Of a DNA stretch of 64,000 bases, positions 22,438 through 51,422 are shown piece by piece. The stretch is from assembly GCA_030390025.1 (NCBI GenBank), contig CM059431.1:119848001-119912000 (forward strand), written 5' to 3'. Position numbers and translations under genes: made by a program. Each line of letters begins with the position of its first letter. Within the stretch, counting starts at the first letter, position 1. The notes under the pieces were generated by a model that was not told where the DNA came from, searched no databases, and saw only the letters and a list, made by a program, of their open reading frames with translations. This DNA is from Squalus acanthias (Eukaryota).

Positions 22438-24292
22438 TTAGTGTTTGTCTTTCATCTATTGTTGTTTCCTGCTGAAGTTATTCCAGCTACATTGCATTTT
22501 GCAGTCATATTAAAAAAAAAGGAAACTTTTTTCCTCAGAAGGCAGTACTTTTGCTCTGGCCACAAAATGTCGCCTGCACAAACTATTTTCAGAATTTAAT
22601 TGCATCACAATAACCCTCTGGCATGACAATATATTACTGTAGCTTTTACTTACAGTGAATCATCCAAATGTTTCACAAAGTCTTGACGGTGAAAGCAAAG
22701 TTTTCTCACAAGGTAGCTTGTTATCCCATGAGGCTGAGTGAGAGAAGGTGGAAGAGGTGTTAATAATGGACAGGGGAGGGCTAGGAGAGAGTCTTATTCT
22801 TAAATAGGTCTGGTGGGTAAACCTTCTGTAGATATTACCTAGATGGACAGTTGACAGCTGATTTCTACAAGGGGTAGATCTGGAGAGTTCAAACATCAAG
22901 AGAAATGATCCAATGGTTCTGGGTAACCTAAGAGATTCAGGTAAAATATCTGACACATGTTATCCCTCAATGAAAAAAGTGATTAAGTAACTGCTGCCCT
23001 GCTAAAGAGAACACTTCATAAATTTCTCTTTCCTGAATAGTAACAGCAATGAAATGCATATATATCTCTATCCATTTTTTTAAGACAGGTTTATAATGAT
23101 TGACAACAGGTGCTCTGCAAACTACAAGATTACTGGTAGCTGAGTTTCCAGGATCCTGTTACGACTTCTTGGGATACATTTTCATCCTTACCACCCGGGC
23201 GTTAAGCATTGCCTGGGCAGAGCGCAGTAACAAAAATCTATTGAGGAGGAGTGCAGGCCTCTTGCAGCGCCTGTCTGACTTTCATAGAAATTTATTTAGA
23301 AATTTACGGCACAGAAGGAGGCCATTCGGCTTATTGTGTCCATCCTTTTATTAATTTGAATGGAAGGAAATCAGCAGGTTCTATTACCAGTGCACAGTAG
23401 AATTTGTCCTTTCCGCCTCCACCCAGGCGATGTTTAAAATCCACCATCTTGTATTGACTAATTTCAATGTGAATACTTGCTTCCCAGGATTGATGGGAAG
23501 CTGTTCTGTGGGTAAGTTAGCTCTGGATTTTTTTCTTTGGTTAATGCATTTATTCTTCCACACATATTTGAAGATGCCAGCTACCTGTGTTTAGCCCAGA
23601 GGCTGCGGGGTTCAGGCCCAGAAAACGGGGTGCACACAGGGCGCAGGGAACAATCCCTGTGCCTGAATGGATAGGCCTGAGGCACATCTAATATTGGGCC
23701 TTAGGCCTCATTATCATCGAGCTGGCGAGCTGATGGTTAAATCTTTTCACTTGACATTCATAGGGCTCAATTTTGCCAGGCCCGAGGAGGCGGGTTTGGA
23801 GGTGTGTGAGGTGTTAAAATAGCAAAAAATGGCGGGCGGAGCCGATCCTGCCTCCAGCCCGCCTCTGAGCAATTTTCCCACAATCAGGGTTTCAGACCCC
23901 GTTTCCATCCCGCCTCCAAGAGGCGAGATAGGACCTTAAGGCCCTTAGCAACCAGTTAAGTGCCTCTATAATCCCATTTTGAGAGGCCTTTTGGAATTTA
24001 ACACATTTCCCCTGTGCTGCACATCTCCTCTGGAACACGCCAGTTAATCCTGGCCGGCTCACAAGTCGATAGCTTACTAACAGCTGCTGCTCAACCATTA
24101 AAAAGGAGTTTTCAGCAATGATCATTTGCAAGTGGCAGAACTTTGTTGTCTCAGGTCTGGGAGAAATTTTAGCAGGCATACTCATTGTTGTGGAAGTTTG
24201 GAGCCTGAGACCCATCTCCAGTGTGATCTCCTGGGAAACCCCTCTCCCCACCTTGACTGAGCGCTTCCTCAACTGAGGTATATACCAGAAGC

Positions 24293-25530
24293 ATGGGAAC
24301 CATTTATTTCCTTTCCTCCTGGACATCAGATTCGGATGAAGACCAGCAGCAGAACCCTGAACAACAGCAGCACCAACAGCAGGAGCAACAACAGGAGCAC
24401 CAAGCTGCTGCTCACCCACCTGAAGCTGCACAGGCCAGAAGGCGCCAGCGCATGGAAGCACGTCGCCGCAGGAGATACCCCCAAAACAGGGTTTACAGAC
24501 AAAGGATGAACTAACTCAACATGACTGAGCAGCAATGCCAAAAGAGGCTCAGACTTTCGCGAGAGATAGTGGGTCACATCTGCGCAATGCTGCAGCAAGA
24601 CCTGGAGCCCAGAGGAACGGGTGGACACCCCTTACCAGTGGCTGTCAAAGTCATGACCGCACTCAACTTTTTTCCTTCAGGCTCATTCCAGGGATCAACA
24701 GCAGACATCAGCAGCGTCTCCCAGGCGGCCGCACACACTTGCATCACACAGGTAACTGATGCCCTCTTTGCCATCGCGCACAATTACATCAACTTCTCCA
24801 AGGATCAAGCAAAGTGTAACCGCGTGTGCGGTTGGATTTGCTAATCTGACAGGCTTTCCAAGGGTGCAGGGCATCGTTGACTGCACACATGTGGCCCTTA
24901 AGGCACCCCATCACAATCCAGGTATTTTTGTCAACCGCAAGGGCTTCCAGTCCCTCAATGTGCAGCTGGTGTGTGACCACAAGAAGGAAATTTTGCATGT
25001 TTGCGCCAAGTACCCTGGCAGTTGCCATGACTCCTTCATCCTGTGCCAGTCTAGTGTGTCTCCGCTCTTCAGTCCGCCAGACCAACTTTTTGGATGGCTA
25101 CTTGGAGACAAGGGCTAATCCCTGAAGACGTGGCTAATGACGCCGTTGAGAAGCCCATCCAACAAAGCTGAGGAGCGCTACAACTCCAGCCACATGTCCA
25201 CCAGAGCCATAATCAAGCAAACCATCGGCTTGCTGAAGATGCGATTCAGATGCCTTGATAGATCAGGTGGAGCTCTGCAGTACTCAGCAGCCAGAGTCGC
25301 CAGAATCATTGTGGTTTGCTGTGCACTTCACAACATAGCACAGCATCATGGCTTGCAGCTGCCTGAGGTAGAAGTGGCTCATCGCATAGCCTCCTCAGAT
25401 GAGGAGCAGGAGGAGGAGAGTGACGACTAATAGCTTGCGGAGGCGCATCAACCAGTGGCAGCAGTATGCTAGCACATTGCTGCCCGGGATGCAAGGGACG
25501 CACTCATCTTTGCCAGATTTGCTTAGACTG
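24293..25530 (+). pseudogene. Harbinger (HARBI1-like) DDE transposase, disrupted
   Basis: Motifs [50 protein letters not shown] and CCALHN. Stops at 24512 and 25116 and a frameshift near 24815. Confidence 0.93.
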
Positions 25531-25842
25531 CCCAATCAAACACTTTTGCCTTGCACCTTCTTACCAGAGCATCGAAAATGGCCAAGAACCTATGGATTTC
25601 TATCAGTCTGACCACCATACTGACAATTGCAAGTCGCCCTAAGCCCTCAATGTGGAAGTCCCATTTGCGAAATGACACAGGCCACAACTTCAACAGTTTG
25701 CCATCAAATTTTTTGATCACATCAATTAATGGATGGCTTTTGAAAAATAAACACAATAGAACACCCAAGTGACTACCCTTGTGACTACTTGTGCTTTATC
25801 TTCCTCTTACATGTGCACCTACGTGGTGCTTCCCCAGTGGCT

Positions 25843-28053
25843 TCAGCCTTGCTCACTTTCTTGCTGCTCCTGCCTCGACACTTTTGGTGGGTGTCCTCTG
25901 GGGTTGCGAGCCTGTGAGAGCTCGGCAACAGTCTGCTGCTGCTGCGGCTGTGCAGGGGCTGAGACGCCGATCTCCGTTGGGTGAGGACTCTGGTGGGGCT
26001 CTGACCGAGGGCTCTGCAGTGGCATGGTCATGTGAGTGCTTGGAGAGGAGCCCCCACTTCCTTGTTCTCTGCCACCTAGATCCCTCTCATGGGTCAGCTC
26101 CACTTCAGAGCTAGCAAGTGGCTTCACAGCACCTTGCTGCACTTCAGGAGGGCCATGAGGACCTATTTCTGCACTGGAAGCCCTACTCCAGAGGAGTTCC
26201 ATGAAGGTCTGGTTTCTCTGCTCAATAGAAGACCATCGCTCCTCAAGAGATGTCAGTCTATTCTGAATAATGACCATGTTTTCAAGACCTTGGCGACTAA
26301 GCCCCTTCATGGCCGTAGCCATTCTCTCCTCTACCGTTGCCAACCTCTCCTCTACGGTAGCCAGCCTTACCACGGAGGTAGCGATCCTTTCCATGGAGGT
26401 TGCCATCCTTTCCGTGGTGATGCGTTCATGCGCCAATGCCTCCACAAAGGCCCTGCTCATGTTAGCGATGGACTCCTCCATTCGCTCCACACTCGCAGCG
26501 ACCCTAGAGACAAAACCTGCCAGAGACTCCTGCACCTGTTCCTGGAGTTCCAGCACTGCTCTCCTTCTGGATAGACCCGGATGCACAGGGTCGACATGCA
26601 GCTGAGCCGAGCTGGCAGAGTCCTGTGCCCTCCGACGAGGACTCTCCACTGCTGTCCCTGTCTCCACCATCATCTGATGCTCACTTGTGAGCTGTGATAC
26701 ACCAGGTGACAACACTACTCTATCTCGCGAAGGTCCCACCGAGGTGTGAGTGTCTGCGCTGGTGCTGGGTGCGCTTAATTCTGCTGACGCTGTGCCCTCA
26801 GAGGTTGCAGCTTCCTCTGAGGAGTCTGGGGGCTCAGGCTGTTCCTCCTGGACAGTGTGGAGGGGGGCTGTCGATGGTCCTGTGGGGGAGTAAAGGAAAG
26901 AGTTAGACATGTGAGATAAACGTTGCATGCATATTGAATTGTGCAGATGATCATAAGTCAATCTGTTAGAGAATCAGAATCAATATCAGTCACTCATGCA
27001 ATGTCAATCAGAGAGATGCAAAACTATTCTGTCACCAGCTCGTTCTGATGCGCCCGTCTGTCCGTCCCCCACTTGCGAATTCTCCTCCACTTCCACAATC
27101 TCCAGGGCCACCTCCTCTGCTGTGGTGAGCTGGGCTATTGAGGGTGGCCCTATTCCTGTCCTGGCCCTCTCCCTCTTATTGTGGGCTCTCTTTTCCTGCA
27201 ATGAGGTACACAAGTGGAGTTTGAGTGAGAATGAAGGAGTGAGTTTCGAGAATCTATAGCATAGATGCTTAGAAGGACACAAAGCTGGAGTGAGGTGCCA
27301 AGACCAAGGGCCCTCCCTGTGTGTTGTAAGTTGTTGTCATTGCATCACAGTGATAGAGAGTGTGAGGGCTGCATAGTCGAATAGTTAAGTGAATGTGAAC
27401 ATAGAGAGAGAGGAAATGGTTAAACATAGAAACATAGAATCTAGGAGCAGGAGTAGGCCATTCGGCCCATCGAGCCTGCTCCACCATTCAATACGATCAT
27501 GGCTGATCATCCAAATCCAGTACCCTGTCCCTGCTTTAATCCCCACAGTACACAAATCCCACCCTACCCCCGTAACCCCACGTATTTAATTCCCCCTAAC
27601 ATATCCCATCCTATCCCCATAACCCCACATATTTAATCCCCCCCTAACACTAAGGGTCAATTTATCATAGCCAAATCAACCTAACCCACACACATTAAGG
27701 GTGCAGGGATGTAAGGGTCAAGTGGGATGTGGAGGAGGAGGTTGACAAAGCAGAGTGCTGGTGATGAGAGGCAAAGGGGATCAGATTGAGAGTCATGGGG
27801 ATGGAATACTCACTTTTCCTGTGCGGAGAAGGTCAAGAAACCTCTTTCTGCACTGCAGCCAGGTTCTGCTGCACATTGAAACGGCATTCACCTCCTGGGC
27901 CACTTGCAGCCACACAGCTTTGGTCTGTTGTGGAGGCTTTTTCCTCCCTGAAGAAGGAAACAGCACTTCCTTATTTGCTCTTGCTCCCTCCACCAGAGCT
28001 TGTAGGGAGTTCTCATCGAATCGGGGTGCACACTTTGGTCTGGTGCTGGACAT
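25843..28053 (-). CDS. Harbinger Myb/SANT-like DNA-binding protein; 3 exons (28053-27814, 27195-27036, 26879-25843), 478 aa spliced
   Basis: Exon 1 reads PRFDENSLQALVE...WLQVAQEVN...RTWLQCRKRFLDL. Both introns are GT-AG with compatible phases (0 and 1). Exon 3 has heptad repeats. A 13-bp deletion versus the 48-51 kb copy truncates the C-terminus. Confidence 0.8.
27424..27694 (-). repeat. 5'-truncated HE1/V-SINE-like SINE in Myb intron 1
   Basis: CR1-derived 3' tail (TTTCTATG)n and a V-domain-like GGTTAGGTTGATTTGGCTATGATAAATTG. TTAA on both sides. Absent from the homologous site at about 50785. Confidence 0.85.
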
Positions 28054-29901
28054 GGTTGCTGCAGGAATTCCTCAGAAGTATTATGCTAAAGCTGAAAGGC
28101 TGAAAAACAACCAAGGCTGCTTGCAGGCCTTAAATGCAGCTGCATAGATGACATCATCGGAGGCGAGTTTCAGCATCAAAATACTCATTGGGCCAGGGGT
28201 TCCTACACGCTGGAAATCAAGTGCCCAATTAGGGCAAAAATCGCTCATTTGTCCCGCCTCACATCGGAGGCGGGGTCCTGACACGCAAACCACCTGACAC
28301 GCCCCCAACCCTCCCCCAGTGACAAAATCCAGCCCATAGCTTCAGAAGGCTCAAACTCAAGACTCAGGCTGTTCAGAGAGTCCCAGACATCTGGCAGGAA
28401 TCAGTGTTAAAGCCACTTCCAACAGGGAAATTTTACAGTATTGATAAGTTTGATCATTTTCTTGTAGGTTTTGTAACTTTATATATTTTTATTTCATTAC
28501 AAAAATTAGGAACAATTTTCCTTTGTTTTTTTTTCCTGGGCAATGCTTATTTCAGGGTGCAAGGTGGAGGCAAATGGACAGAGACTCATGACACCAGGGG
28601 GGCAATTTTCCCAGCCCCGAGGAGGCGGGTTTGGAGGCGGGACAGTTGGCAAAATGGCAAAAACTGAGGGCGGGTTTGGAACCCGCCTCCAAGCAATTTT
28701 GCTGGAGGCGGGTTTGATGGGTGCGATTCGGTCCCACTTCCATCAGTCGGGAGAGGTAGTTAAGACCCTTAAATAGTAGTTAAGGGCCTCTATAATCCTA
28801 TTTTGACAGGCCTTCGTTATTTTACCACATTTTCAGCGTGTTGCACAACCCTCCTAAACCACGCTGGCTCAACCTGGCGGGTTGACAAGTGGGTGACCTC
28901 CTCACAGCTGCAGCTCCACCATTAAAATGGAGCTTTCATCAGGGAGCAGTTGCAGGTGGCAGAACTTTTGTTCCAAAGGTCTTTCAGCACTTTTAGCAGG
29001 CCTACCGAAGTTGGAAGTGCTGCAGCTTCTATCTCTCAACTGTGGGACCTCCTTGGAAGACCCTCTCCCCGCTTGAACTGAGCGCTTCCCCAACGGAGGT
29101 ATCTGCCAGCAGCATGGGAACCATTTGTTTCCTTTCACTATGGACCTCAGATTCGGATGAGGAGCAGCCACGGCAGCAGCAGAACCAGGCAGCTCAGCAG
29201 CAACAGCAGCAGGAGCCCCAACCTCCTGCTCACCCCTGATGCTGCACAGGGCAGAAGGCGCCAGCGCATGGAAGCACAACGTGCAAGGAATGCACTTATC
29301 CTGGCCAGATTTGCATAAGTTGCCCATTGTGCCACATGTGCTAGGTTCCTTCTTAACACATGATAGACAATGGACATGACTCTCTGGCCTCTTTTCACTC
29401 TGACCACATACCTGACCACGCAAGTGTCGTGGAGCCCGCAATGTGTAGCTGCCTAAGCCAAAATAACAGATGCCGTCACGCCAACAGGTTGCCATCACCT
29501 AATTTTAATACATTCCCACAGGGAAGGCATTTCATCAATAAACAGAAACAATCATCCAATCTGCACACAGATCTGGAGGTTATAGCCCTTGCCAGCTGGA
29601 TCCACACAGCCTTGGTTTCTTTGGGAGGCCTCTTCCTCCCACATGAGGGGAAGAGCACCTCCCTGCTAGCTGTTGCCCCCTCAACCAGCATACCCAGCGC
29701 CTCATCCGAGAACCTCAGGGAGGCCCTTGCCTTGGAGCTGGCCATTCTTCAAGGAGATAACAGCTTGGAGGTGGTGCAGCATCGACCAAAAACCAGTGGA
29801 ATGAGCCAAGGCAGCAAGCAGCCCTTAAATGAAGCTGGATAAGTGACGTCAGCAGAGGCGAGTTTCAGTCCCAAAACACTAATTGGTCCAGGGGAACCCA
29901 C

Positions 29902-32279
29902 GGGCTGGATTTTCTCAATGGAGACGTGATGGAGGCAGGACTGCTGCCGGGTCTCAGTCCCACCTCCATCAGCCTCTGGTCAACCAGCGGGATTTTCCCC
30001 TGTCTGACGTTGTTAAGCCCGCCCTGCGGGCTCTGCAGGCCAATTAGGGGGAAGTCACTGATAGAGCAAGTCAACATCTGACGTGCCATCTATCAAGATT
30101 TCTTGAAAGAAGAAATGTCAGCGTTTGACAGCTCTGTGAAGCTGTCAAACACTGACATTCTGTGTAGTTTGATGAGTGCTTGTGTTCAGGACTCAACAAA
30201 CCTTTCTACATTGTAGATTTCAGATGACTGTTGGTTCGGAGGATCCAACAGCCAGTCTGTGAAATCTACAATGACGATGTCAGGACTCCGGATCCAGAGC
30301 GGCTGAAGGCTGTCGGCAGAAACAAAGGTAAGTGAACATTTTCTAACACTTTATACTTACCACTCCACACTTGCACCATTCACTGTAAGGGGTTCTGTGT
30401 CGTGCTTGTATCGCAGACAGTGCTGGTGCGGGGTTAGGCCTTCGTTGCCCAATACTATTGCTTGCTCTGGTCTCTGGCCAGCCTTGTTGCAATAAGCACC
30501 TGTGAGTGGTTCGACCCACTCGCCCTTACGGTTCTAACACTGGACTTAGGTGCGAGAGCAGTAATGCAGAGAAAAACTCAAATAGACCCAGTTGAATAGT
30601 ACGAAATGGAAATCTTTATTGCATAGCGTCCAAGATCATGAAGTACATGTCATAGGCGCAAATTAACAAGAGTACAAGTATACATACATTCATAAAGCTT
30701 GGTCTATGGTAATGAAGAACGCACGGCACATCGTAAAAAGGGGAACACATTATACTTTATCCTTAATAAAACCACCCTCCCCTATCAATACCTACACTAC
30801 ATCTAGATTTGTAGGGTCGGGAAACATGCTCACCACTCGTGATACTTCGGAGAATTTTAAAGTGAGGTGCTCGGCTCGTTTCGCTGCAGCGCCTGACTGT
30901 CACGTGTTTTGAGAGGTCTTTGTACCCCACTTGTTTACTTTCGCTGCTGCTGCAAGCAGGCTGTGCTCCCCGTTGTCATGAAGAACTCGACAGTGCTCGG
31001 GCCCGGCTGTAGAACTCAAAGAAGAGTCTTCCTGTATCGACACCGGTTGTCGATAAAATTCGAGGAAGAGTCTATGACCAGTTCGTGCAGTAACTGATAG
31101 AGTTCGTATAAATTCGGCGCGGTCGGGGTTTACTGACCGCGGCGGCACGTGGATTCTTCTTCTTCTCTTCTCGTCTCGTCTCTTCGGGCCTTCGGGTCCA
31201 GAACACCGTTTACCGACACTCGGGATGGTGCACCCGGTTACCGGCCTTCGTCGAGGCGGCTCCTTCCGTTTGAGCTGCACCCAACATTCGAATAACCGTC
31301 CAGTGCGGCTAAAAGTCCAGAGTCAACAGTCCAGAGAAACAAGAGCACGAATCAAGCGAATAAGAATCAAATCAAGGGAGTAAGAGAGCGATGGACATTT
31401 GTTGTCTATAGTTATAGTGCTGTGTTCCCTTATCTCCCGCTCAAATCTTAATGTTTGTCCTTTGTGAAATATTGGCGCTCAAAACTCCCAGCATGGGGTG
31501 ATTCTTGTCTTTAACGGGTTTCGGTAGCACCTGAGACTGGCCAACTACCCGTTAATGTTTTCCCCATTGTTGAACCGGCTCGGAGCCTCCCTGGCTGGGT
31601 TTTGGGGGCCCCCGAATACTTGTTTAATCACCCGAGAATGGCTCTCTCATTGTAGAGTCGTGGGGGTATTTGCATATTGATGTGTCTGGATGGGCCTTCG
31701 ATTGCCCAGTACAATGGTCCTTACTTGTGCATGGAAAACGATTCCAGCACTCATATCTTTTGCTATTGTCACAAATGCAAACAGGTTGCATCCTGTCTTT
31801 ATCAGTGCTTATCGAAAATGTTTATTCGAACGCCATCTTGTCTGCCCACTGTACTTCTGGAAACTTCTGCCACAATGCGCGGCGGCCATTTTACAGGCTT
31901 CTGTGTCCTGTTTAATCATGACAGCATTTCGTTTAAATAAACTGATCAAACGAATCTGCTTCTATCTCGTTATTTCGAATCGCGATAATTGCGAAACTTT
32001 ACATCACTCACCTCTACATTGCACTTTCAGACCCCTCCGACCCCCGCAGACCTCCCACTCAACTCCTCCACCCCAGCGGGGTTCTCCCAGGTGGGGAAGC
32101 CTGCACTTGAAAAGGTAAAATAGGACTAATCCTTTTTTCTGCGGCAGTTAAAAGGATTTAATCCCTTTCCCGCCTTGAGGAGTTAGGACCCATGTCAGGA
32201 CGGCCACCACCACTTTCTGCAACTTTACCGGCAGTCCCGCTTCCATACCCGCCTCCTCGGGGCTGGCAAAATCCAGCCC
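29902..32279. mobile_element. Harbinger-type MITE nested in the 28598 element and carrying a solo LTR
   Basis: TIR GGGCTGGATTTT/AAAATCCAGCCC, TSD CAC, and homology to 12595-13408. Confidence 0.88.
30384..32003 (-). mobile_element. Solo LTR, family B
   Basis: TGTAAGGGG...TTTACA ends, perfect TSD TCAC, and homology to 35802-37468. Confidence 0.92.
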
Positions 32280-32834
32280 CACACCTCTGAAATCAACTGG
32301 CCAATTAGGGGAATATTTTTACCACCTCTCAGTGGAGGCAGGTTTGGAACCCATTGTAAGGGGTGACCTGCGGCTCTGTGCTTAGCCTGGGTGCTAGTGC
32401 GAGGTTAGGCCTTGTTGCCTGTTCTGGTCTCCAGCCAGCCTGGTAACACTAGACACCTGTGAGTGGTTCGACCTACTCGCCCTTACGGTTCTGACACTGG
32501 ACTTAGGTGCGAGAGCAATAATGCAGAGAAAAACTCAGGTAGACCCGGTCGAATAGTGCGAAATGGAAAATCTTTATTGCATATTATTCAAGATTACGAG
32601 ATACATGTCATAAGCACAGCTTAATGACAGTACAATCTTACACACAGTTATGTAACTAATTTTAGGGAAACGAGGAGCGCATGACACATCGTAAAAAGGG
32701 GCACACATTACAATTATCCTTAAAACTTAAACCCTCCCCTATCAATACCTGTCCTAAACTAGATTTGTAGGATCGAGACTCATGCTCACCACTCGTGATA
32801 ACTCGGAGAATTCCGAAACTCTGCTCGGATGTTT

Positions 32835-33440
32835 TTACCGCAGCACCTGACTATCCACGTGTTGATCAGGGGTCTCTGTACCCCACTTGTTTACTCGTTT
32901 CTGCTCCTCGAGCTCTTCCTCATCTGACTTCCAACCCAAATAAAAGATCTTACATTTTTCTAGGATGTCCTCTCCCCTGATGCAAGCTGCTTTGCCTGCC
33001 TGTGTGCCCTGTGGCCCTACCTGGGGCTGCGAGTCCCCACTCGCAGGTTTGGCCCCTGTTGTAGGCCCTTGTGCACCCGGCTTATACAGTTTGCACTGGT
33101 CAAAATCCCTGCTTCTGGCTACCCTGCAGGCTGCCTTTATCTCTCTAAGCTGTGCTTCTAGCATGAGCACGTCTAACTTTCCCATTAAGCGGGCGTTCTC
33201 CTCCCGCAGGGCCTGCTCTCTAAGCTGCCCTTCCAGCCCATCTATTTTCCCTATTAAGCGGGCGTTCTCCTCCCGCAAGGCCTGCTCTCTAAGCTGACCT
33301 TCTAGCCCGTTTACTTTCCCTATTAAGTGGGCGTTCTCCTCCCGCAAGGCCTGCTCTTTTAACCTGGCCTCCTCACAGGAGACCCCCTCCTGTGCGTGTC
33401 TTTTAAAAGGACACAGGTAGGCAGGCTGCGTGGGCTCTAG
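32835..33440 (-). CDS. Open frame continuing gag after its stop codon: 201 codons, Gag-like coiled coil with 69-bp (23-aa) tandem repeats
   Basis: No stop between 33440 and 32838 in the gag frame. The unit REENARLIGKIDGLEGQLREQAL is repeated about 3 times. No upstream ATG of its own. Confidence 0.55.
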   Translation of the reverse strand, partial: LEPTQPAYLCPFKRHAQEGVSCEEARLKEQALREENAHLIGKVNGLEGQLREQALREENARLIGKIDGLEGQLREQALREENARLMGKLDVLMLEAQLREIKAACRVARSRDFDQCKLYKPGAQGPTTGAKPASGDSQPQVGPQGTQAGKAACIRGEDILEKCKIFYLGWKSDEEELEEQKRVNKWGTETPDQHVDSQVLR

Positions 33441-35171
33441 TCATTGGGTACTATTGGACGGGGCTGCGGCATCTGCGGGGCCGGTAGCAACTGCCACCCT
33501 TCCATGCGAAATCATGAGGGTGCGCATGGCTCCCAACATTGATTCGATCGCATCGGGATGGATAGGTGCACTAGCTCCCCTATCGGAGACAGGCGCCTGG
33601 GCTCGGACTGCGGGATTTTTATCCCTGGACACCTTCCAAGGGTTCCTGCAGTTCTTGCGCCAATGCCCTGTCTTCCCACACCCGTAACAAGCATTACTGG
33701 CCTGCGGGGCGCGGTTACCCTCCTGATGCCACTCCTTCTGAGCCGGGGCTGTGGGCCGCGCCTCATGCACCTTTCCCTTAAGGGGACGTGCTCCCGTACT
33801 CCTGGTATTACGGTACCCTACCGTGAGTCGATTTAGGACCGACTCCTCTGTAGTGGCGGGGTTAGTGGGATCAAACCACGCTTTGGCCTGCTCCCTGACG
33901 GCTGGCAAACTGTTGGCTACTATACACCTGAGCCAATTAGTTAAACCGACGCCGTCCAAATAGGCGCGCGCTGGTGCGCCTGGGCAGCTACGCTGGTATA
34001 CTGGCCACAGCCTGTCGGCGAAAACCTTCGGGGGTTCTCCCTCCATCTGCACTGTTTGTCCCAATCTAACGAACGGACCTTCATCGTCCGCTCCCAACAC
34101 TTCTAGGACCTCATCTCTCAATTCCCCATAGGTATTATTTCCCCTCTTGCTCTCGTCTGAGAGACACTGAAGGATCGAGCTGTCTAATGAGAACAACAGC
34201 ATTTTTGCTTTTTCCCCATCGTCGCAGCCGTTAATGGCTGCGGTTTGCTCTACCTCCCTGAAATGTACGGAAGGGTCGTCTGACTCGGCCAGCTTCCGTA
34301 CGTGACTGATCATAACCCTCAGCTGGTGTGAGCTGTGAGGCAACACAAGCTGGTTGAGGAGATCCCCCTGTGCCCCACCGTCTCTGTTCGGGCCCCTCTT
34401 GATACCCGTGACCGGACATAACGGTCCCGGCTTCACTTCTACCTCAGTGGGCTCTTCCTCTACTTCTACCACTTCCTTCCTCACACAGGTTGCCGAATAG
34501 CTGGGTGGCGCAGAGGGCACAGTGGCAAATACCTCCTCTGCTTTGTTCGGTGGGGATTTCTGAAATTCCTCACCCACCAGCGGCTGGTGTGCTGACGGGC
34601 TGATAAGGCACACCATGCCGTGCGCTTTATTCAGGGCCTTTTTAAGGTTCCCTATCTCTCTTTGGCAGACGCTGTGATCGGCCCCCTGATGTTTATCCTC
34701 GAGGGCCATCTTATATGCCGCCCTAACCCCCGTTAAGCTCTCTTCCTGGGCTTTTATTTGGGCAGCTAGGCGGGCACATCGTTCCTTTATTCTGCCCTCA
34801 TTTAACTTTGCCTCAGTGACCTGGCACTCGAGGTAATCTATTTTCGCCTCATGGTGGTTGGCGACTAATTGGCGTTCTTGATGTAACGCATTTAAGGACG
34901 CGATGAGCTGCTGCCCCCCCGCGACCTTCTCGTCCATTTCCACCTCTAAACCCTTGATCTGAGCTGCCTGCGCTAAGATGACCTGGTCCGAAATTTGGAC
35001 TTGTCTTTTATAGCACATCAGCCAGACCGCTTTCTCTGCTGTTTTTTTATGTTCCTTGCTATCTGTCCACCTCTCGGCTGCCTCTAGTGGACGCTTATCC
35101 ACCAGCAGGTCACTTATCCATTTCTTAGTCAAATTCACTTTTCCAAACAATGGCAGCACACCATCTTCCAT
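33441..35171 (-). CDS. gag: Ty3/Gypsy-type Gag (coiled-coil N-terminus, capsid-like region, CCHC zinc knuckle)
   Basis: 576-aa uninterrupted ORF with CYGCGKTGHWRKNC, located downstream of the 5' LTR and PBS. Confidence 0.9.
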   Translation of the reverse strand: MEDGVLPLFGKVNLTKKWISDLLVDKRPLEAAERWTDSKEHKKTAEKAVWLMCYKRQVQISDQVILAQAAQIKGLEVEMDEKVAGGQQLIASLNALHQERQLVANHHEAKIDYLECQVTEAKLNEGRIKERCARLAAQIKAQEESLTGVRAAYKMALEDKHQGADHSVCQREIGNLKKALNKAHGMVCLISPSAHQPLVGEEFQKSPPNKAEEVFATVPSAPPSYSATCVRKEVVEVEEEPTEVEVKPGPLCPVTGIKRGPNRDGGAQGDLLNQLVLPHSSHQLRVMISHVRKLAESDDPSVHFREVEQTAAINGCDDGEKAKMLLFSLDSSILQCLSDESKRGNNTYGELRDEVLEVLGADDEGPFVRLGQTVQMEGEPPKVFADRLWPVYQRSCPGAPARAYLDGVGLTNWLRCIVANSLPAVREQAKAWFDPTNPATTEESVLNRLTVGYRNTRSTGARPLKGKVHEARPTAPAQKEWHQEGNRAPQASNACYGCGKTGHWRKNCRNPWKVSRDKNPAVRAQAPVSDRGASAPIHPDAIESMLGAMRTLMISHGRVAVATGPADAAAPSNSTQ

Positions 35172-35190
35172 TCATAAGTTTCATATACCT

Positions 35191-35701
35191 GCTGTGAAAT
35201 CTATGAATCTTACACCCCCCCAAAATAACAGCTAAACCTCAATTAAATTTAAAAAAAAACCATCACATTAATAAAATAAGTATAGTTAATTAAATTAACC
35301 ATTTTAAATAAAAAATTAAATTTTTGGAAAAATTTAAAATCTTTTAAAAAGTTATAAAAATAAACTTACCTGTCTTTAAAGTCTCTAAAAAAGATATACC
35401 TGTTAAAAAAAATTCAAAAAAATACTTAATTCACTACTTACCTTGTTAAAAGTAGGTCTTACTCCTCCTTTTTACATTTCTAAAATCTTCAGTACTTACC
35501 TGCGCGTCCAAAGCATGAAGTGCACAGCGTGCGCGCAGCCTGTAGCGCGCACGCGATGCACCGAGGAACCGCCCCCTTTTCAAAAGAGCAATTGCCGGTT
35601 TTCAGCGCATGCGCAGGGCATGCAGAAAACCGGCAATTGGAGTGGGAATACGCGAGAGTACGCAGTGCGTACTCTCGCGTCGCGGGATCAATTTCTGGGC
35701 C
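35191..35701. mobile_element. One-ended copy of the 7860-8602 MITE between the PBS and gag
   Basis: Colinear with about 8093-8602. Retains the AATTTCTGGGCC TIR and lacks the other end. Confidence 0.85.
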
Positions 35702-35778
35702 ATAATCTGCTATTCTCTCTTCCATGACATTTCGCCCATTCATACCAGGGTCCAACACATTATTTTCTCGCTGCCAGT

Positions 35779-35796
35779 GTCCCTTCGTGGTCGCCA
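35779..35796 (-). promoter_or_regulatory. Primer binding site, tRNA-Arg(TCG)-type
   Basis: TGGCGACCACGAAGGGAC lies 5 nt after the LTR's TTACA end. It is complementary to GTCCCTTCGTGGTCG-CCA, the 3' end I recall for vertebrate tRNA-Arg(TCG). Confidence 0.8.
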
Positions 35797-38700
35797 TTTT
35801 CTGTAAGGGGTGACCTGCGGCTCTGTGCTTAGCCTGGGTGCTCGTGCGAGGTTAGGCCTTGTTGCCTGTTCTGGTCTCCAGCCAGCCTGGTAACACTAGA
35901 CACCTGTGAGTGGTTTGACCCACTCGCCCTTACGGTTCTGACACTGGACTTAGGTGCGAGAGCAATAATGCAGAGAAAAACTCAGGTAGACCCGGTCGAA
36001 TAGTGCGAAATGGAAAATCTTTATTGCATATTATTCAAGATTACGAGATACATGTCATAAGCACAGATTAGTGACAGTACAATCTTACACACAGTTATGT
36101 AACTAATTTTAGGGAAACGAGGAGCGCATGACACATCGTAAAAAGGGGCACACATTACAATTATCCTTAAAACTTAAACCCTCCCCTATCAATACCTGTC
36201 CTAAACTAGATTTGTAGGATCGAGACTCATGCTCACCACTCGTGATAACTCGGAGAATTCTGAAACTCTGCTCGGATGTTTTTACCGCAGCACCTGACTA
36301 TCCACGTGTTGATCAGGGGTCTCTGTACCCCACTTGTTTACTCGTTTCTGCTCCGGCTAGCAGGCTGGACCGTCTGCTGTCATGAAGATCTGTGTTGTCC
36401 TCGGAGTTCTGATACTACTCGAAGAAGAGTCTTCCTGTGCCCTCACCAGTTTGTAAAATTCAAAAAATGGTCTTCCTGGGCAAGGAAAGTGTTTATTCGA
36501 CCTGCAGGCGCGGTCGGGGCTTACTGACCGTGGCGATACGTATTGTCGTCTTCTTCTCTTCTCATCTCATCTCATCTTATCTCGGGCCTTCGGTTCCAAC
36601 ACCGTTTACCGACTTCTCGGGATGGTGTGCCCGTTTCAAGGCCTCACAGCCCAGTTCTACACAGATCTTCGCGACATGCCACGAGGTTGATCCTAGCGGA
36701 TCAGAGTCCAGAGCCGTCAGGCAAGAGAATAAAAGTTCAACAGTCTTCCAGCGAGTCAAGGCAGCAAGTGCAAAAAGAAGCAGAGACTGCAGTCAGCAGC
36801 AAGAGTAGCAAGAGGCAAGAGAGGCAAGAGCAACAAGAGACAGATGGACGGTTGTACCTTACAGTTATAGTGCTGTAATTCCTCTTTCCCCGCCCAATCT
36901 TAATGTCTATCTTTTGTCAGGTTTTGGCGCTCAAACTTCTTGTATAGGGTGATCTCCGTTTTTAATGGGTTTCGGTGATACTTGTAACTGTCTGAGTACC
37001 CGTTAATACTTCTCCCATTGTGGAACCGGCCAGTAGTCTCCCTGGAGGGGTTTTGGGGCTTCCAAATGCTTTCTGTAAGTACCCGCAAACGGCTCTCTCA
37101 TCGTAGAGTCGTGGGGATTTTGCATATTAATGTCTTTGGATCGGTTCTTGATCGCTCGGTACAATAGCCCTTATTCGCACCTGGGAGACCGATTCCAGTA
37201 TTTATGTATAAAATGCAAACCCATTATGTCTTGTCAATTATCTCAAATGTGCTGAGTCCTGTACGATCTCGCACAAATGTTTATTGGAACGCCATCTTGT
37301 CTGCTCATTGAAAGTCTAGAACGTTCTGCCACGAGGCGTGGCGGCCATTTTACAGGCTGTTTGTGTCCGCTTTGAAAACCTGACAGCATTCTGCTGAAAT
37401 AAAGCTGTTTGTACGAAACTTTATGTCTCCTTATTTTATAAAATCGCGATAATTTTGCGAATTCTACACCATCCAAACTGAAACCCGCCTCCAGCCCACC
37501 TCCATTGGGAAAATCACGCCCTAGGTTTCCACCCACATTGCATTGCCCAGGGACTCTTGGGGTCCTCCCAATGGAGGCGAGCAAAGGTGGAACACTGGTG
37601 CCTGGAGCGGGCAGAAGCAAGCTAAGTTAATGCTAGTGAGGCAGGAGTGACATCATGATGCCATCCACCGCATTTTCCTGGGTCTCTGACTGACAATAGT
37701 AGGAGAACCCATTGTTGGTGGGACTTAATCCTCGTGCCCAGCTCACTCAGGTGGTGGGGTGGTGGGGGTGGGTATATAGACTGAGCAGGGTATAGAGCAA
37801 GCAACAGTAACCAAGAACAGTGAAGGAAATAAAAATGTAAATATGATAGGTGACCCAACAAAATCAACTAATTCAGAAGAGCAAAATGCTGCTAATAAAA
37901 AACCAGGAACTCAAACTGTCAGCTTCTTTTAACCAGTCTGCGAGACCAGCACAACTCCCGGGACCCCCATGCACCCAGGTGATGTGAGGAAAGTGATGGA
38001 AATAGTGCTGAAATTTATTATCAGTTTGACTTTGGTTGTTTCTGTTTAAGGCTTGCTCAGCAAAGGAATCCTTCCCTGATTTGTTGCTGGCTTTTAGGAT
38101 GCCATCCTTAGATGTAGACCACAACTGTTGTCTTTTTGCCTTGCTGGTAATGTTTTCGATTTGTAAAATGTAAATTTTAGTTACCGTATATAAATAATCT
38201 TTACTCTGCTATGCGACCACTATATTGTGTTCTTTTATCTGTTGCTTTCTTTTTCGATCACCGTACCATGTCTACTGCTTTCTAGGTTTCAGGATAAAAT
38301 GCGTAATGGGACCCATTTGTGTCCCGAGTGTGAGAAAATTGAGATCTCAGCCCCAGATCCATTATCATAATGCCTCAAGGTTTCATGACTACTAACAAGA
38401 ATGTGACATTTCTATCTTTTCTGAGTTAGGTGCCAAGATTTTTTTTTCATATGACTGAACATTTAGATCAAATGAATTTAATGTCAGAACCAGGGTGTTC
38501 AAGACATTGCTCTGAATCTCACAACCTGCAGAATCCTGAGGGTCTCTTTTGCAAACATTCTGATTTTTCTCTTATTTTGTGCCACTTTTGGACATGCTGT
38601 ACAATACAGATTTTTTTTAAATATGCAGTTTTTTTGCCAGAGCAGATGTATTGTAGGAATAATATTCCAATTATATATTTGGTACAATCTGGACAATCAT

Positions 38701-38953: not shown

Positions 38954-40633
38954 TGTAAGGGTTTGCGTGCGTGTCTCTCAGCCTGTGAGATTCGCGCGGC
39001 TTCTGTGCAGCCTGTATGTCAGTGCGGGTTTAGGCCTTGTTGCCTGTTCTGGTCTCCAGCCAGTCTGGGAACACTAGACACACCTGTGAGTGGTTCGAAT
39101 CACTCGCCCTTACGGTTCTAGACACTGGACTTAGATGCGAGAGCAGTAATGGAGATGAAACTCATGTAGACTCGGTTGAATAGTACGAAATGGAAAAAAT
39201 CTTTATTGCATGATATTTAAGATTACGAAATACATGTCATAAGCACAGATTAATGACAGTACAATCTTACACACAATTATGTAGCTAATTCTAGGGAAAC
39301 GAGGAACGAACGACACACCGTAAATAGGGGCACACATTACAAGTATCCTTAATACTTAAACCCTCCCCTATCAATATCTGTCCTAGCTGGATTCGTAGGA
39401 TTCGAGACTCATGCTCACCACTCGTGATAACTCGGAGAAATTCCGAATAGCTGATCGGATGTTTTCACCGCAGCACCCACGTGTCGATCAGGGGATCTCC
39501 TGGCCCCACTTGTTTACTTGCTTCTGCTCCGGCTAGCAGGCTGGAACGTCTGTTGTGATGAAGATCTGTGTTGGTTGGTTTAACATATCAGTCAACACTT
39601 ACGAGAATATTCTCTCGGTGTCCGTCATGAGGAACTGCCCTGATGGGTTTCACAGACCGGTCAATATCTTCACGGAGAATCTTCCGGGGTCCGTTCTTCA
39701 AAGTTCAAAGAAGTCTTCCTGGCAAGGAAAAATGGCTATTCGACCTACAGGCGCGGTCGGGGCTTACTGACCGTGGCGATAAGTATGGTCTTCCTCTCTT
39801 CTCATCTCATCTCATCTCTTCTCGGGCCTTTGGTTCCGATGCCAGTTACCAACATAGGTCTTCGTTACACGACACGAGGTAGATCCGAACGGATCACAAA
39901 GTTCAAACAGTCCTTTAAAAAGAGACACCAGGCAAGCAGGAACAAGACGGCGAGTCAAAACACAGGAGCAGCCACGAGGATACGAGTCAATCGGATAAGA
40001 GAAAGATGGACGGTTGGAGCTTGTAATTATAGTACAAAATCTTCCGTTTCCCGCCCAACCTTAATGCCTTTTCTTTTGTTTGGGTTTGGCGCTCAAATGT
40101 CTTGTATAGGTGATCTCCGTTTTTAATGGGTTTCGGGGCTACTCGTAAATGTCTGAGTACCTGTTAATATTTCTCCCATTGTTTAATCGGTCGGTGTTCT
40201 CCCTGGAGGGGTTTTGGGGCTTCCAAGTGTCTTGTATAACTACCCGCTAACGGCTCTCTCATCGTGGAGTCGTTGGGATTTTACATATTAATGTCTTTGG
40301 ATGGGCCCTTGATTACTTGGTACAATAGCTTTCATTCGTACCTGGGAGACCGATTTCAGTATTTATGTGTATACTGCAAACCCATAATGTCTCGTGTATT
40401 ATCTTCAATGTGCTGAATCTTAATCGATCTTGCACAAATGTTTATTGGAACGCCATCTTGTCTGCCTGTCGAAAAGTCTAGAATGTTCCGCCACGAGGTG
40501 CGGCGGCCATTTTACAGGCTGCTTGTGTCCACTTTGAAAACCTGACAGCATTCTGCTAAAATAAAAGCTGTTTGAACGAAACTCTGTGTTTTTCTCCTTA
40601 TTAATAAAATCGCGATATATTGCGAATTCTACA
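38954..40633 (-). mobile_element. Solo LTR, family B
   Basis: TGTAAGGG...TTCTACA ends, perfect TSD GTAG, and homology to 35802-37468. Confidence 0.92.
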
Positions 40634-48005: not shown

Positions 48006-48145
48006 AGCTGTTAACATCAGCTGGAAGCTGGTTTTAACAGTTAGCTGCCTACATAATAAAGGGACTGAGCTACAAAGGTACAACATCAAATGAAGTTACT
48101 CTCAGGCAGTTATGTTCTGTATGGAGCTTAGAACACAGACAAATT

Positions 48146-51100
48146 GGGCTCGATTTTGCCAGGCCCGAGGAGGCGGGTTTGGAGGCGTGTGAGTTGTTAA
48201 AATCGCCAAAAATGGCAGGCGGGCCCGATCCCACCACCATCCCGCCTCCGAGCAATTTTCCCAAATGCGTGTTTTCTGATCCACTTTCCATCCCGCCTCC
48301 AAGAGGTGGGATAGGCCCTTAAGGCCCTTAACAACCACTTAATTGCTGCTATAATCCCATTTTGAGAGGCCTTTCTGATTTTTATACATTCCCCCCATCC
48401 TACATGCCTCCTCTGGAACGCGCCAGGTAATGCTGCCGGCCTCACAAGTGGATTGCTTACTCACAGCTGCAGATCCACCATTACAAAGGAGTTTTCACCA
48501 ATTATCATTTGCACGTGGCAGAACTTTGTTGTCTCAGGTCTGGGGGAACTTTTAGTAGGCCTACTCAGTGTTGTGGAAGTTTGGAGCTTGACACCCATCT
48601 CCAGTGTGACCTCCTGGGAAATCCCTCTCCCCACCTTGACTGAGCGCTTCCTCAACTGAGGCATATACCAGAAGTATGGCGACCATTTAATTCCTTTCCT
48701 CCTGGACATCAGATTCGGACGCAGACCAGCCGTGGCAGCAGCAGAACCATGAGTAACAGCAGCACCAACAGCAGGAGCATCAACAGGAGCGCCAAGCTGC
48801 TAGTCACCCACCTGAAGATGCACAGGCCAGAAGACGCCAGCGTGCGACAACATTGCTGCCCGAGATGCAAGGGACACACTCATCCTGGCCAGATTAGCCT
48901 GCACAATCAAACACTTTAGTCTCGCTCCTTCTTACCAGAGCATCGACAATGGACAAGAACCTGCGGAATCCTATCACTTTGCCCACCATTCTGACAATCG
49001 CAAGGCGCCCGAAGCCCTCAATGTGAAAGTCCCATTTGCGAAATGACAGAGGTCACAACTTCAACAGTTTGCCATCAAAACACTTTATAATACAATCACA
49101 ATGATGGCTGGTCCAAAAACAAAACAACACAGCACCCAAGTGACTACCCTTGTGACTACATGTGCTTTATCTTCCTCTTATGCATGCTCCTACGTGGTGC
49201 TTCCCCTGTGGCTTCAGCAGATGTGGAGGCCCCTTGCTCACTTTCTTGCTGCTCCTGTCTCGACGTCTTTGGCGGGCGTCCTCTGAGGTGGCGAACCTGT
49301 GCAGTCTCGCCAACAGTCTGCTGCTCCTGTGGCTGTGCAGGGGCTGAGACGCCCATCTCAGTTGGGTGAGGACTCTGGTGGGTCTCTGACCAAGGGCTTT
49401 GCTGTGGCATAGTCATGTGAGCGCTTGGAGAGGAGCCCACACTTCCTTGTTGTCTGCCACCAACATCCCTCTCATGGGTCAGCCCAACTTCAGAGCTAGC
49501 AAGTGGCTTGACAGCACCTTGCTGCACTGCAGGGGGACCATGAGGACCCGTTTCTGCACTGGAAGTCCTACTCCAGAGGACTTGCATGAAGGTCTGGTTT
49601 GTATGCTCAATAGCTGACCATCGCTCCTCAAGAGATGTCATTCTATTCTGAACAATGACCATGTTTTCATTCCCTGGCGACTAAGCTCCTCCATGGACGT
49701 AGCCATCCTCTCCTCTACCATAGCCATCCTCTCCTCTACGGTAGCCAGCCTTACCATGGAGGTAGCCATCCTTTCCACGTAGGTTGCCATCCTTTTCGCG
49801 GTGATGCGTTCATGCAACAATGCCTCCACAAAGGCTCTGCTCATGTTCGCGATGGACTCCTCCATTTGCTCCACACTCGCAGCGACCCTGGAGACAAAAC
49901 CTGCCAGAGACTCCTGCACCTGTTCCTGGAGTTCCAGCACCACTCTCCTTCTGGATGGACCCGGAGGCACAGGGTCGACATGCAGCTGAGCCGAGCTGGC
50001 AGAGTCCTGCGCCCTCCGACGAGGACTCTCCACTGCTGTCCCTGTCTCCACCATCTGCTGATGCTCACTTGTGAGCTGTGATACACCAGGTGCCAACACT
50101 ACTCTATCTCATGAAAGTCCCACCGAGGTGTGAGTGTCTGCGCTGGTGCTGGGTGCACTGAATTCTGCTGACGCTGCGCCCTCAGAGGTTGCAGCTTCCT
50201 CTGAGGAGTCTGGAGGCTCAGGCTGTTCCTCCTGGATAGTGGGGTTAGGGGGCTTTTGATGGTCCTGTGGGGGAGTTAAGAAAAGAGTTAGAGATGTGAG
50301 GCCAAGGTTACATGCATATTGAATATTGCAGATGATCATAAGTCAATCGGTTAGAGCATCAGAATCATTATCAGTGACTCATGCTATGTCAATTAGAGAG
50401 ATTCCAAACTATTCTGTCACCAGCTTGCTGTGATGCGCCCGTCTGTCCGTCCCCCACTTGGGTATCCTCCTGGATCCCAGCAATTTCCAGGGCCACCTCC
50501 TCCCAGCGGGTGAGCTGGGCTACTGAGGGTGGCCCTCCTCCTGTCATGGCTCTTTACCTCTTATTGTGGGCTCTCTTTTCCTGCAATGAGGGACACAAGT
50601 GGAGTTTGAATGAGAATGTAGGAGTGAGTGTAGATAATCCATAGCATAGATGCTTAGAAGGATACAAAGGACCCTCCCTGTGTGTTGAAAGTTGTTGTTG
50701 TCATGGCATCACAGTGATAGGGAGTGTGAGGGCTGCATGGTCGAATAGTTAAGTGAATGTGACCATAGAGAGAGAGGGAATGGGTGAGGGTGCAGGGATG
50801 TAAGTGTCAAGTGACATGTGGAGGAAGAGGATGGCAAAGCAGAGTGCTGGTGAAGAGAGGCGATGGGGATCAGATTGAGGGTGATGGGAAAGTCATACTT
50901 ACTTTTCCTGTGCAGAGAAGGTCATGAAACCTCTTCCTGCATTGCAGCCAGGTTCTGCGGCTCATCAAGATGGAGTTGACATCCTGGGCCACTTGTAGCC
51001 ACACAGCTTTTGTCTGCTGGGGTGGTTTTTTTCTCCGTGAGGAAGGGAACAGCACCTCCTTATTACAGCTGGCTCCGTGCACCAGAGCTTGGAGGGAGGG

Positions 51101-51422
51101 CTCATCAAACTGAGGAACACACTTTTGCTTGATCGTTGACATTTTCCACAATTCAACTCCTTCATATAAAATGCAGAGCCTTTGCAGTCTCCAGAAGAAT
51201 CAAGGCTGCTTGCAGGCCTTAAATCCAACAACATTGATGACGTCATCGGAGCCGACTTTCTGTATGAAAAGACTCATTGGGCCAGGTGTTCCCACACTCA
51301 GGAAATCAATTGCCCAATTAGGGGAAAATCCCACTTTTTCAACACATCACTTAGGAGTCGGGGTCCTGACACGATTTCCACCTGACACGCCCCAGCCCGC
51401 CCACGCTGACAAAATCCAGCCC
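48146..51422. mobile_element. Harbinger deletion derivative of the 23763 family (transposase core deleted, Myb gene degenerate)
   Basis: TIRs GGGCTCGATTTTG/CAAAATCCAGCCC, colinear with 23763-28335 except for a deletion of about 1 kb at about 48843. Flanks ATT/AAA do not form a clean TSD. Confidence 0.9.
49156..51142 (-). pseudogene. Harbinger Myb/SANT gene, disrupted copy
   Basis: Same three-exon layout as 25843-28053, with a stop at about 50109 and a frameshift near 49670. Confidence 0.8.

What the first reader, a model, noticed from the sequence alone, without database searches (positions are those of the whole stretch)
32835..35171. Pol-less Gypsy element: gag UGA-CUAG readthrough context leads into a Gag-like tandem coiled coil instead of Pol
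Seen: gag ends CAA-TGA-CTA-GAG, and the same frame stays open for 201 more codons (LEPTQPAYLCPFKRHAQEGVSCEEARLKEQALREENA...). An 8-bp hairpin (CACAGGAG/CTCCTGTG, 33374-33394) lies about 45 nt after the stop. Established: UGA-CUAG is a programmed readthrough context (alphaviruses, mammalian AQP4 and OPRK1), and readthrough is one way retroelements make Gag-Pol. Seen: the extension has no protease, RT or integrase motif. It resembles this Gag's own N-terminal coiled coil (CEEARLKEQALREENARL...IKAACRVA versus CQVTEAKLNEGRIKERCARL...VRAAYKMA). Inference: a non-autonomous element that would make Gag plus a minor Gag-coiled-coil fusion of about 778 aa, which might alter capsid assembly or interfere with the autonomous partner.
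Basis: partly seen in the sequence, partly recalled or inferred. Interest (0 to 1): 0.72.

Follow-up and report, generated by a model that had tools for sequence, protein, structure and literature searches.

The report
Pol-less retrovirus keeps its leaky stop
In what is likely a shark or ray genome, more than a hundred copies of a retrovirus-like element have lost the enzyme gene and carry a piece of coat gene in its place, in frame behind the same UGA stop, so they likely make a little extended coat protein that may help them get copied by their complete relatives.

Summary
The stop, its CUAG context, the 201-codon frame and the hairpin are all real, but this is not a Gypsy element and the window copy is damaged. 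It belongs to a large lokiretrovirus-like family (Pol with tether plus second RNase H; paramyxovirus-F-like Env). Of 180 gag-selected loci, 63 have gag-UGA-protease and 113 have gag-UGA-coiled coil, so this stop is the family's Gag-Pol junction. The usual pol-less form is LTR-gag-UGA-ORF2(~370-420 aa)-env-LTR. ORF2 = Pol residues 1-11 + a gag-derived coiled coil (E 1e-13 in longer copies) + Pol's post-integrase tail. Eight junction forms are all in frame, and variants shared between copies lean synonymous (pooled p=0.005, weaker than gag). The window copy has a 551-bp insert in gag and has lost about 4.8 kb, so its '778-aa' product is an artefact. Readthrough is inferred, not measured. Best reading: a minor Gag-X fusion that helps the pol-less RNA in cis, like mouse IAP 1Δ1. 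Side result: 4 of 4 separately annotated published lokiretrovirus gag genes also end UGA-CUA, which my searches did not find remarked on.

The parts
35802..37468 (-). 5' LTR, complete (1667 bp, TG...CA)
   Evidence: full-length match to LTRs of other copies
37469..37472 (-). target-site duplication, 4 bp (ATGG), 5' side
35779..35796 (-). primer-binding-site-like 18-mer just inside the LTR; overlaps the gag ATG (tRNA type not tested)
   Evidence: sequence
35701..35797 (-). native 5' end of gag (about 32 codons from the ATG at 35797), cut off from the rest by an insertion
   Evidence: 97.6% to a pol-bearing copy
35150..35700 (.). 551-bp insertion of another repeat into gag; supplies the ATG at 35171; related copy at 8049-8604 (87%)
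33444..35149 (-). rest of gag: N-terminal coiled coil, capsid-like region, CCHC zinc knuckle
   Evidence: Atlas top hits are retrotransposon gag clusters (on a relative's gag)
33437..33443 (-). gag stop TGA plus CTAG context, the family's gag/pol junction
33408..33440 (-). ORF2 codons 1-11 = first 11 codons of pol
33099..33407 (-). gag-derived coiled-coil cassette with three tandem units (period 69-75 nt) replacing protease-RT-RNase H-integrase
33374..33394 (-).
32908..33098 (-). start of the post-integrase Pol tail (Pol about 1218-1281), cut by a deletion
   Evidence: 99% over 191 nt
32355..32907 (-). truncated 3' LTR (last 553 of 1667 bp; 6 mismatches to the 5' LTR). The deletion joint has 5-nt microhomology and removed the rest of ORF2, env and most of U3; the last 24 codons of the frame lie here
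32351..32354 (-). target-site duplication, 4 bp (ATGG), 3' side

Best explanation
This is a damaged copy of a large pol-less subfamily of a lokiretrovirus-like endogenous virus, in which a gag-derived coiled coil plus the tail of Pol sits in frame behind the family's gag UGA stop, so intact pol-less copies likely make a minor Gag-coiled-coil-tail fusion by readthrough that probably favours copying of their own RNA by pol-bearing helpers. Shown: the anatomy (LTR-gag-UGA-ORF2-env-LTR versus LTR-gag-UGA-pol-env-LTR), the origin of the three parts of ORF2, in-frame junctions, a synonymous bias among shared variants, and intermingling of pol-bearing and pol-less copies on the gag tree. Inferred: readthrough at a few percent (the pol-bearing form has pol in frame with gag and no ATG before the protease region); co-packaging with helper RNA, with template switching at the 11-codon and tail homologies swapping the Pol and coiled-coil cassettes; entry of the fusion into particles through its Gag part, where the extra Gag-type coiled coil could pair with Gag's own. 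The cis benefit is by analogy with IAP 1Δ1. The window copy is a dead end: its deletion most likely arose after reverse transcription, because the 5' LTR still has the U3 that the 3' LTR lacks.
For: Same stop before protease in 63 of 180 and before the coiled coil in 113 of 180 gag-selected loci; TGA kept in 63/63 and 110/113. 20 of 20 coiled-coil copies followed downstream have env and 0 of 20 have protease, RT, RNase H or integrase core. Insert versus Gag 109-193: 32-36% identity, E 1e-13, z 13-15, 0 of 500 shuffles. Eight junction forms, each read in frame 0. Shared variants in gag-selected copies: coiled coil N/S 15/18 against singletons 36/13, p=0.019, other frames p 0.62 and 0.79 (44 copies). 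Larger set: pooled 30/31 against 84/34, p=0.005, other frames 0.49 and 0.73; no shared stop in frame 0 against 2 and 5 in the other frames. On the gag tree the pol label needs 11 changes (shuffled mean 13.1; starred branches force at least 3). Pol cores are 94-97% alike between lineages whose gags are 77-80% and tails mostly about 50% alike. UGA-CUA alone gives 1.5% readthrough (PMC4132726, abstract). The IAP 1Δ1 gag-pol fusion acts in cis (PMC6466679, passages).
Against: No readthrough, RNA or protein measurement; no run on record as RNA. Selection is weaker than in gag (shared ω 0.2-0.6 by segment against 0.13), no single segment of the larger set is significant alone (p 0.11-0.35), pooling was done after seeing the data, and the whole tail is near neutral (ω 0.74, p 0.45). 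ORF2 is open for 330 aa or more in only 63 of 113 copies. The most Gag-like part of the insert is missing from most copies (kept in 29 of 113), so exact Gag mimicry is not required. Some in-frame junctions could follow from unit lengths that are multiples of three or from homology-guided switching. No 3' stimulatory structure is shared by both forms.
Confidence: 0.58

Rival explanations
1. Translation matters, not the product: the open frame behind the leaky stop keeps the pol-less RNA stable or exportable (for example by limiting nonsense-mediated decay), and any hydrophilic filler would do.
For: Insert length and content vary widely (1-4 units, Gag-like part often lost); tail near neutral in amino acids; all junction forms in frame.
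Against: Shared variants in the coiled coil lean synonymous, which points to the protein; readthrough of a few percent protects little RNA; a coiled-coil unit is present in all 113 classified copies, although it was the classifier.
Confidence: 0.17
2. Neutral relic: an old recombination accident put a gag fragment in place of pol; the frame survives because copies are young and recombine in register, and any fusion protein is tolerated.
For: 50 of 113 copies have a broken ORF2; per-segment tests not significant; LTR pairs are 95.5-100% identical in the 17 of 20 copies that could be compared.
Against: The cassette is shared by lineages whose gags differ by about 20%; pooled p=0.005 with frame controls near neutral; eight junction forms in frame.
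Confidence: 0.13
3. ORF2 is a separate accessory protein made from an internal AUG or a spliced RNA, not by readthrough.
For: First Met is codon 40 in 29 of 44 copies.
Against: It is codon 63-86 in 12 of 44 copies; codons 1-39 carry no shared stop and codons 1-12 lean synonymous (2/5); no GT..AG joint into ORF2 was listed in contigs (weak).
Confidence: 0.07
4. The fusion is an interfering factor that poisons helper capsids (copy-number control, first reader's idea).
For: A truncated Gag domain fused to Gag could act dominantly (analogy with Ty1 p22, recalled; listing only).
Against: The cassette spread through at least 150 insertions per query that need helper enzymes, so the selection acts on the element, not on one host locus.
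Confidence: 0.05

Closest known systems
Lokiretroviruses / lokiorterviruses (PMC7947760: parts 1-2 of 4 of the text, term finds, supplement finds and supplement part 59; PMC9040795: passages)
   Same: gag-pol-env between LTRs; tether plus second RNase H; NYNRIN/CGIN1-like relatives; Env with an RxxR site and F-like fold; N-terminal coiled coil on Gag (their 'smc', annotated as smc-gag-pol); gag ending TGA-CTA in 4 of 4 separately annotated published gag genes.
   Different: The paper lists lampreys, ray-finned and lobe-finned fish, amphibians and reptiles, not cartilaginous fish. It does not mention stop codons or frameshifts in its main text. 8 of its 22 pol entries seen are annotated as fused gag-pol frames. 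Here Pol has a tail of about 280 aa after the SH3-like domain, and a pol-less, env-bearing form with a coiled-coil cassette exists.
BHIKHARI (Bik-1, Bik-2) of zebrafish (10.1101/2024.03.25.586437: section 5 and passages)
   Same: Non-autonomous lokiretrovirus relatives; Gag of about 600 aa with an N-terminal coiled coil; rely on a helper for pol.
   Different: Bik-1 has one long ORF and Bik-2 has neither pol nor env; no second in-frame ORF is described, and the helper was not found. Here env is kept and the helper is abundant.
Mouse IAP 1Δ1 (PMC6466679: passages)
   Same: Non-autonomous deleted provirus whose deletion makes a new in-frame Gag fusion that acts in cis; very successful relative to the full-length form.
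   Different: 1Δ1 is a plain gag-pol deletion in an unrelated ERV group. Here Gag stays whole, the fusion would be a minor readthrough product, and a gag fragment replaces pol.
Gamma-/epsilonretrovirus Gag-Pol readthrough and alphavirus UGA-CUA readthrough (PMC13517186: passages; PMC4132726: abstract)
   Same: In-frame stop between gag and pol; the context equals the alphavirus type II motif.
   Different: The retroviral cases listed use UAG, or UGA with AGA/CGA/AGU; the review has no mention of lokiretroviruses or retrotransposons. No conserved 3' structure was found here.

Membership tests
Lokiretrovirus | Dual RNase H (tether plus second RH) in Pol | tested here: met
   Pfam RT_RNaseH/RT_RNaseH_2 at 470-602 and RNase_H PF00075 at 650-792 in a pol-bearing copy
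Lokiretrovirus | Env related to paramyxo/pneumovirus F, with RxxR site and TM | tested here: met
   Model from a 40-sequence alignment, pLDDT 73; Foldseek top hits hPIV3 F E 1.7e-11, RSV F, NDV F. Sequence scans alone missed it; the profile's best PDB hit was an envelope gp130 at E 0.017
Lokiretrovirus | Integrase close to CGIN1/NYNRIN | tested here: inconclusive
   Closest named Pol relatives are 'NYNRIN-like' frog and coelacanth proteins at about 50%, but the search scored the RT region and no integrase tree was built
Lokiretrovirus | RT falls inside the Loki clade | not tested
   No tree with published Loki/Odin RTs; only by-eye motif likeness to Loki-Rca Pol
Lokiretrovirus | SMC-like coiled coil in front of capsid (some members) | tested here: inconclusive
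   Coiled-coil-like N-terminal region in Gag by sequence; no comparison with published smc regions was run (one search shows smc-gag-pol annotation)
Ty3/Gypsy (Metaviridae) | Single RNase H, no tether | tested here: not met
   Two RNase H-like domains; PMC12440569 passages name the tether for Retroviridae, Loki and Odin
Programmed UGA-CUA readthrough | Conserved in-frame UGA-C(UA/UG) with conserved coding frame behind it | tested here: met
   (pol codons 13-132 shared ω 0.08, p 3e-5)
Programmed UGA-CUA readthrough | Conserved 3' stimulatory stem-loop | tested here: inconclusive
   Folds differ between forms; z from +1.1 to -3.6 by copy and window length; hairpin absent in pol-bearing copies
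Programmed UGA-CUA readthrough | Measured readthrough product | not testable with these tools
   no Ribo-seq, proteomics or reporter

The most novel reading that the evidence does not exclude
A two-cassette endogenous virus: one gag-UGA-[cassette]-tail-env backbone swaps by recombination between an enzymatic Pol cassette and a Gag-derived coiled-coil cassette, and the satellite form uses the Gag-Pol readthrough slot to put a purpose-kept Gag-X protein into particles that gains it priority for helper enzymes; UGA-CUA readthrough is an unrecognised Gag-Pol rule of many lokiretroviruses, here in cartilaginous fish.
Probability: 0.3. Interest if true: 0.75.

Novelty: new variant of a known kind. 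Interest (0 to 1): 0.52.

Why it matters
Defective retroelements usually just lose pol. Here the pol slot was refilled in frame with a structural domain and kept through many insertions and several recombinations, which suggests the readthrough product can be repurposed by a satellite element. The family also gives a natural paired test of one readthrough site with two different downstream RNAs. Separately, the junction points to UGA-CUA readthrough as the Gag-Pol mechanism of several lokiretroviruses, the sister group of retroviruses, and likely extends the group to cartilaginous fish. I did not find either point in the papers searched (term finds 27, 51, 70, 116); most subscription journals and Repbase are not covered.

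Tried and rejected
Single-sequence fold of Env: pLDDT 33, unusable. Pfam and PDB sequence scans of Env: nothing. Pfam hit of the extension to Rab11-FIP3 treated as generic coiled-coil similarity. Protein search with a 370-aa ORF2: no hit at E<=0.001 among 7998 candidates; Atlas hits under 0.9. Complex prediction of Gag 60-222 with ORF2 12-142, without alignments: no answer, score 0.00, not used either way. Donor gag for the insert: none among the 150 scored of 6346 candidates; all 30 loci read were ORF2-type. Pattern for the TGA-CTGG junction followed by protease: 0. Sequencing runs: no RNA holder listed; contigs of 8 runs laid cover both forms but cannot show expression or splicing. First dN/dS set aside because copies were partly chosen by ORF2 protein. 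Pairwise indel count set aside because recombined segments split into false frameshifts. In one search the NHGPC segment was mis-framed (its true frame is the 'frame+2' row, no shared variants) and was left out of the pool; the script stopped on a display error after the tests printed. The idea that ORF2 is the Loki 'smc' gene left behind was rejected because smc is annotated in front of gag. Earlier-findings look-ups found nothing on this sequence.

Full report
Observation. The window holds an LTR element on the minus strand: a complete 5' LTR (37468-35802), a gag frame ending CAA-TGA at 33443-33441, CTAG, and 201 open codons to 32835. A 4-bp target-site duplication flanks it, so it is one insertion. 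The copy is damaged twice. The 3' LTR is only the last 553 bp (6 mismatches to the 5' LTR), joined to the extension at 32908/32907 through 5 nt of microhomology. The last 24 codons are therefore LTR sequence. A U3 deletion in the RNA would be copied to both LTRs (established), so this one most likely happened after reverse transcription.

The family. The genome (3.7 Gb) holds many copies: 3623 candidates for the junction DNA, 40 scored, and each protein query filled its list of 144-158 matches. All 30 junction loci have TGA-CTAG in frame, and 23 of 30 stay open for 367-420 codons. To avoid choosing on the extension I took loci by gag alone: 90 of the 144 listed for the window's gag and 90 of the 150 listed for a gag about 78% identical to it (top 30 of each, then 60 more down each list, skipping places already fetched and obvious duplicates). 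Of these 180, 63 continue into protease and RT, 113 into the coiled coil, and 4 could not be anchored. TGA is kept in 63 of 63 and 110 of 113 (one TGG, one GGA, one mis-anchored). Contexts are CTAG, CTAA or CTGG in 62 of 63 and 109 of 113. The stop is thus the family's gag/pol junction. In pol-bearing copies pol is in frame 0 and under strong constraint (shared ω 0.08), so readthrough is the simplest way to make Pol (inferred).

What the helper is. A pol-bearing copy encodes protease, RT, tether, a second RNase H, H2C2, integrase, an SH3-like domain and a tail of about 280 acidic/Pro-rich residues, followed by an ORF of about 840 codons and an LTR. The closest named Pol relatives are frog and coelacanth 'NYNRIN-like' proteins at about 50%. 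The last ORF has a signal-like N-terminus, RQRR and a C-terminal TM stretch by eye; modelled from 40 homologs it matches paramyxovirus and pneumovirus F proteins (E 1.7e-11). These are the marks of lokiretroviruses (PMC7947760), not Gypsy; an RT tree was not built, so membership is likely, not proven. The nearest named Env relatives are from a skate (76%) and a sawshark (54-58%), so the host is likely a cartilaginous fish, a group not listed in that paper.

What ORF2 is. Pol-less copies run LTR-gag-UGA-ORF2-env-LTR: 20 of 20 followed have env and none has the enzyme cores; three keep only the last 99 residues before the tail. ORF2 is Pol 1-11, then about 100 residues with 1-4 coiled-coil units, then the Pol tail (88% over 292 aa for a close copy; 99% in DNA for the window). 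The window's coiled coil matches Gag only marginally (z 1.9), but longer forms (29 of 113 copies) continue with a segment that aligns to Gag 109-193 at E 1e-13, z 13-15, 0 of 500 block shuffles. The insert is a diverged gag fragment; no donor was found among 150 scored hits.

Is it kept by selection? Eight junction forms between coiled coil and tail were seen (six in the gag-selected classification, one more among its unclassified rows, one among coiled-coil-selected loci), and each reads in frame 0. I compared variants shared by several copies (arising while the element replicated) with singletons (mostly after insertion), assuming a transition bias of 4. In 44 gag-selected copies the coiled coil gave shared N/S 15/18 against 36/13 (p 0.019; ω 0.34; other frames ω 0.74 and 1.46), gag ω 0.21, whole tail ω 0.74 (p 0.45). 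In 110 de-duplicated copies, four ungapped segments (n = 110, 104, 47, 87 rows after dropping gapped or unanchored rows) gave ω 0.20, 0.59, 0.31 and 0.40, none significant alone; pooled after the fact p = 0.005, frame controls 0.49 and 0.73, and no shared stop in frame 0. This is moderate evidence, weaker than for gag (ω 0.13). Against it, ORF2 is open for 330 aa or more in only 63 of 113 copies, as expected for ageing insertions but also for a dispensable frame.

Exchange with the helper. On a gag tree (16 pol, 14 pol-less, and 12 of 30 divergent pol-less rows) pol-bearing and pol-less copies intermingle: 11 changes against a shuffled mean of 13.1, at least 3 forced by strong branches; resolution is low. 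A second pol-bearing lineage has a gag 77-80% and mostly a tail about 50% identical to the first, yet a Pol core 94-97% identical (12 loci read, 10 reach the tail). Cassettes therefore move between backbones, as expected from co-packaging and template switching (inferred).

RNA structure. No shared stimulator was found. The context alone supports about 1.5% readthrough in reporters (PMC4132726, abstract).

Mechanism. Most likely, intact pol-less copies make Gag, Env and a few percent of a Gag-coiled-coil-tail fusion of roughly 970-1020 aa, which enters particles through Gag and favours its own RNA in cis, as reported for IAP 1Δ1 (PMC6466679, passages). I put this at 0.58; frame-only benefit 0.17, neutral relic 0.13, separate accessory protein 0.07, interference 0.05. 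No expression data were available.

Literature. In the supplement of PMC7947760 (held cut at 605,073 characters) the four separately annotated gag genes end TGA-CTA-A, TGA-CTA-G, TGA-CTA-G and TGA-CTA-G, each followed in frame by a similar V-Y-(L/F)-V motif by eye, while 8 of 22 pol entries are annotated as fused frames. The main text does not mention stop codons, and a 2026 readthrough review does not mention lokiretroviruses. Searches found no description of this junction, of a cartilaginous-fish lokiretrovirus or of such a cassette; unseen supplements, subscription journals and Repbase may hold one. Earlier scan notes report gag-UGA-CUAG-pol junctions in unrelated elements, so the readthrough motif itself is common; the refilled pol slot is the unusual part.

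Verdict. Real, better supported at family level than in this copy, and a new variant of a known kind. Interest 0.52.

Noticed in passing
PMC7947760 supplement: 4 of 4 separately annotated lokiretrovirus gag genes end TGA-CTA; UGA-CUA readthrough may be a common Loki Gag-Pol mechanism that the main text does not mention. 8 of 22 pol entries are fused frames.
   Followed up: partly
window 35779-35801: The gag ATG (35797) lies 4 nt inside the 5' LTR end and overlaps the primer-binding-site-like sequence; the frame is open from there in many copies (619 codons stop to stop). A later ATG may be the true start.
   Followed up: no
window 30383-31996 and about 38996-40633: Two older solo-LTR-like copies of the same family flank the element (72-75% and 84-87% to its 5' LTR).
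   Followed up: partly
window 35150-35700 and 8049-8604: A 551-bp non-coding repeat of unknown class, two copies 87% alike; one interrupts gag.
   Followed up: partly
L301-L312: A second pol-bearing lineage (junction often TGA-CTAA) with divergent gag and tail but a Pol core 94-97% identical to the first: recent Pol exchange between backbones.
   Followed up: partly
L100 Pol residues 1218-1496: Pol carries an acidic/Pro-rich tail of about 280 aa after the SH3-like domain; the related frog and coelacanth Pols read (P0004-P0007) end right after that domain. Origin of the tail unknown.
   Followed up: partly
L041 env residues 159-238: Weak Ig-like signal in the N-terminal part of Env (Pfam Ig_3 E 0.49; a homolog V-set E 0.045), in front of the F-like part.
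   Followed up: no
L076/L082: One pol-less copy has GGA in place of the stop, giving a continuous gag-ORF2 frame; another has TGG. Both are single copies.
   Followed up: no
P0122, P0123: Sawshark gene models ('Niban 1-like', 'ZFP2-like') contain fragments of this Env, probably annotation chimeras.
   Followed up: no
L109 (about 28 kb before the window start): Another pol-less copy of the family lies close to the window, on the opposite strand.
   Followed up: partly
window 23760-29934 and 48143-51328: Two diverged copies (83-92%) of a multi-kb repeat with ORFs such as 25843-26973; class not tested.
   Followed up: no
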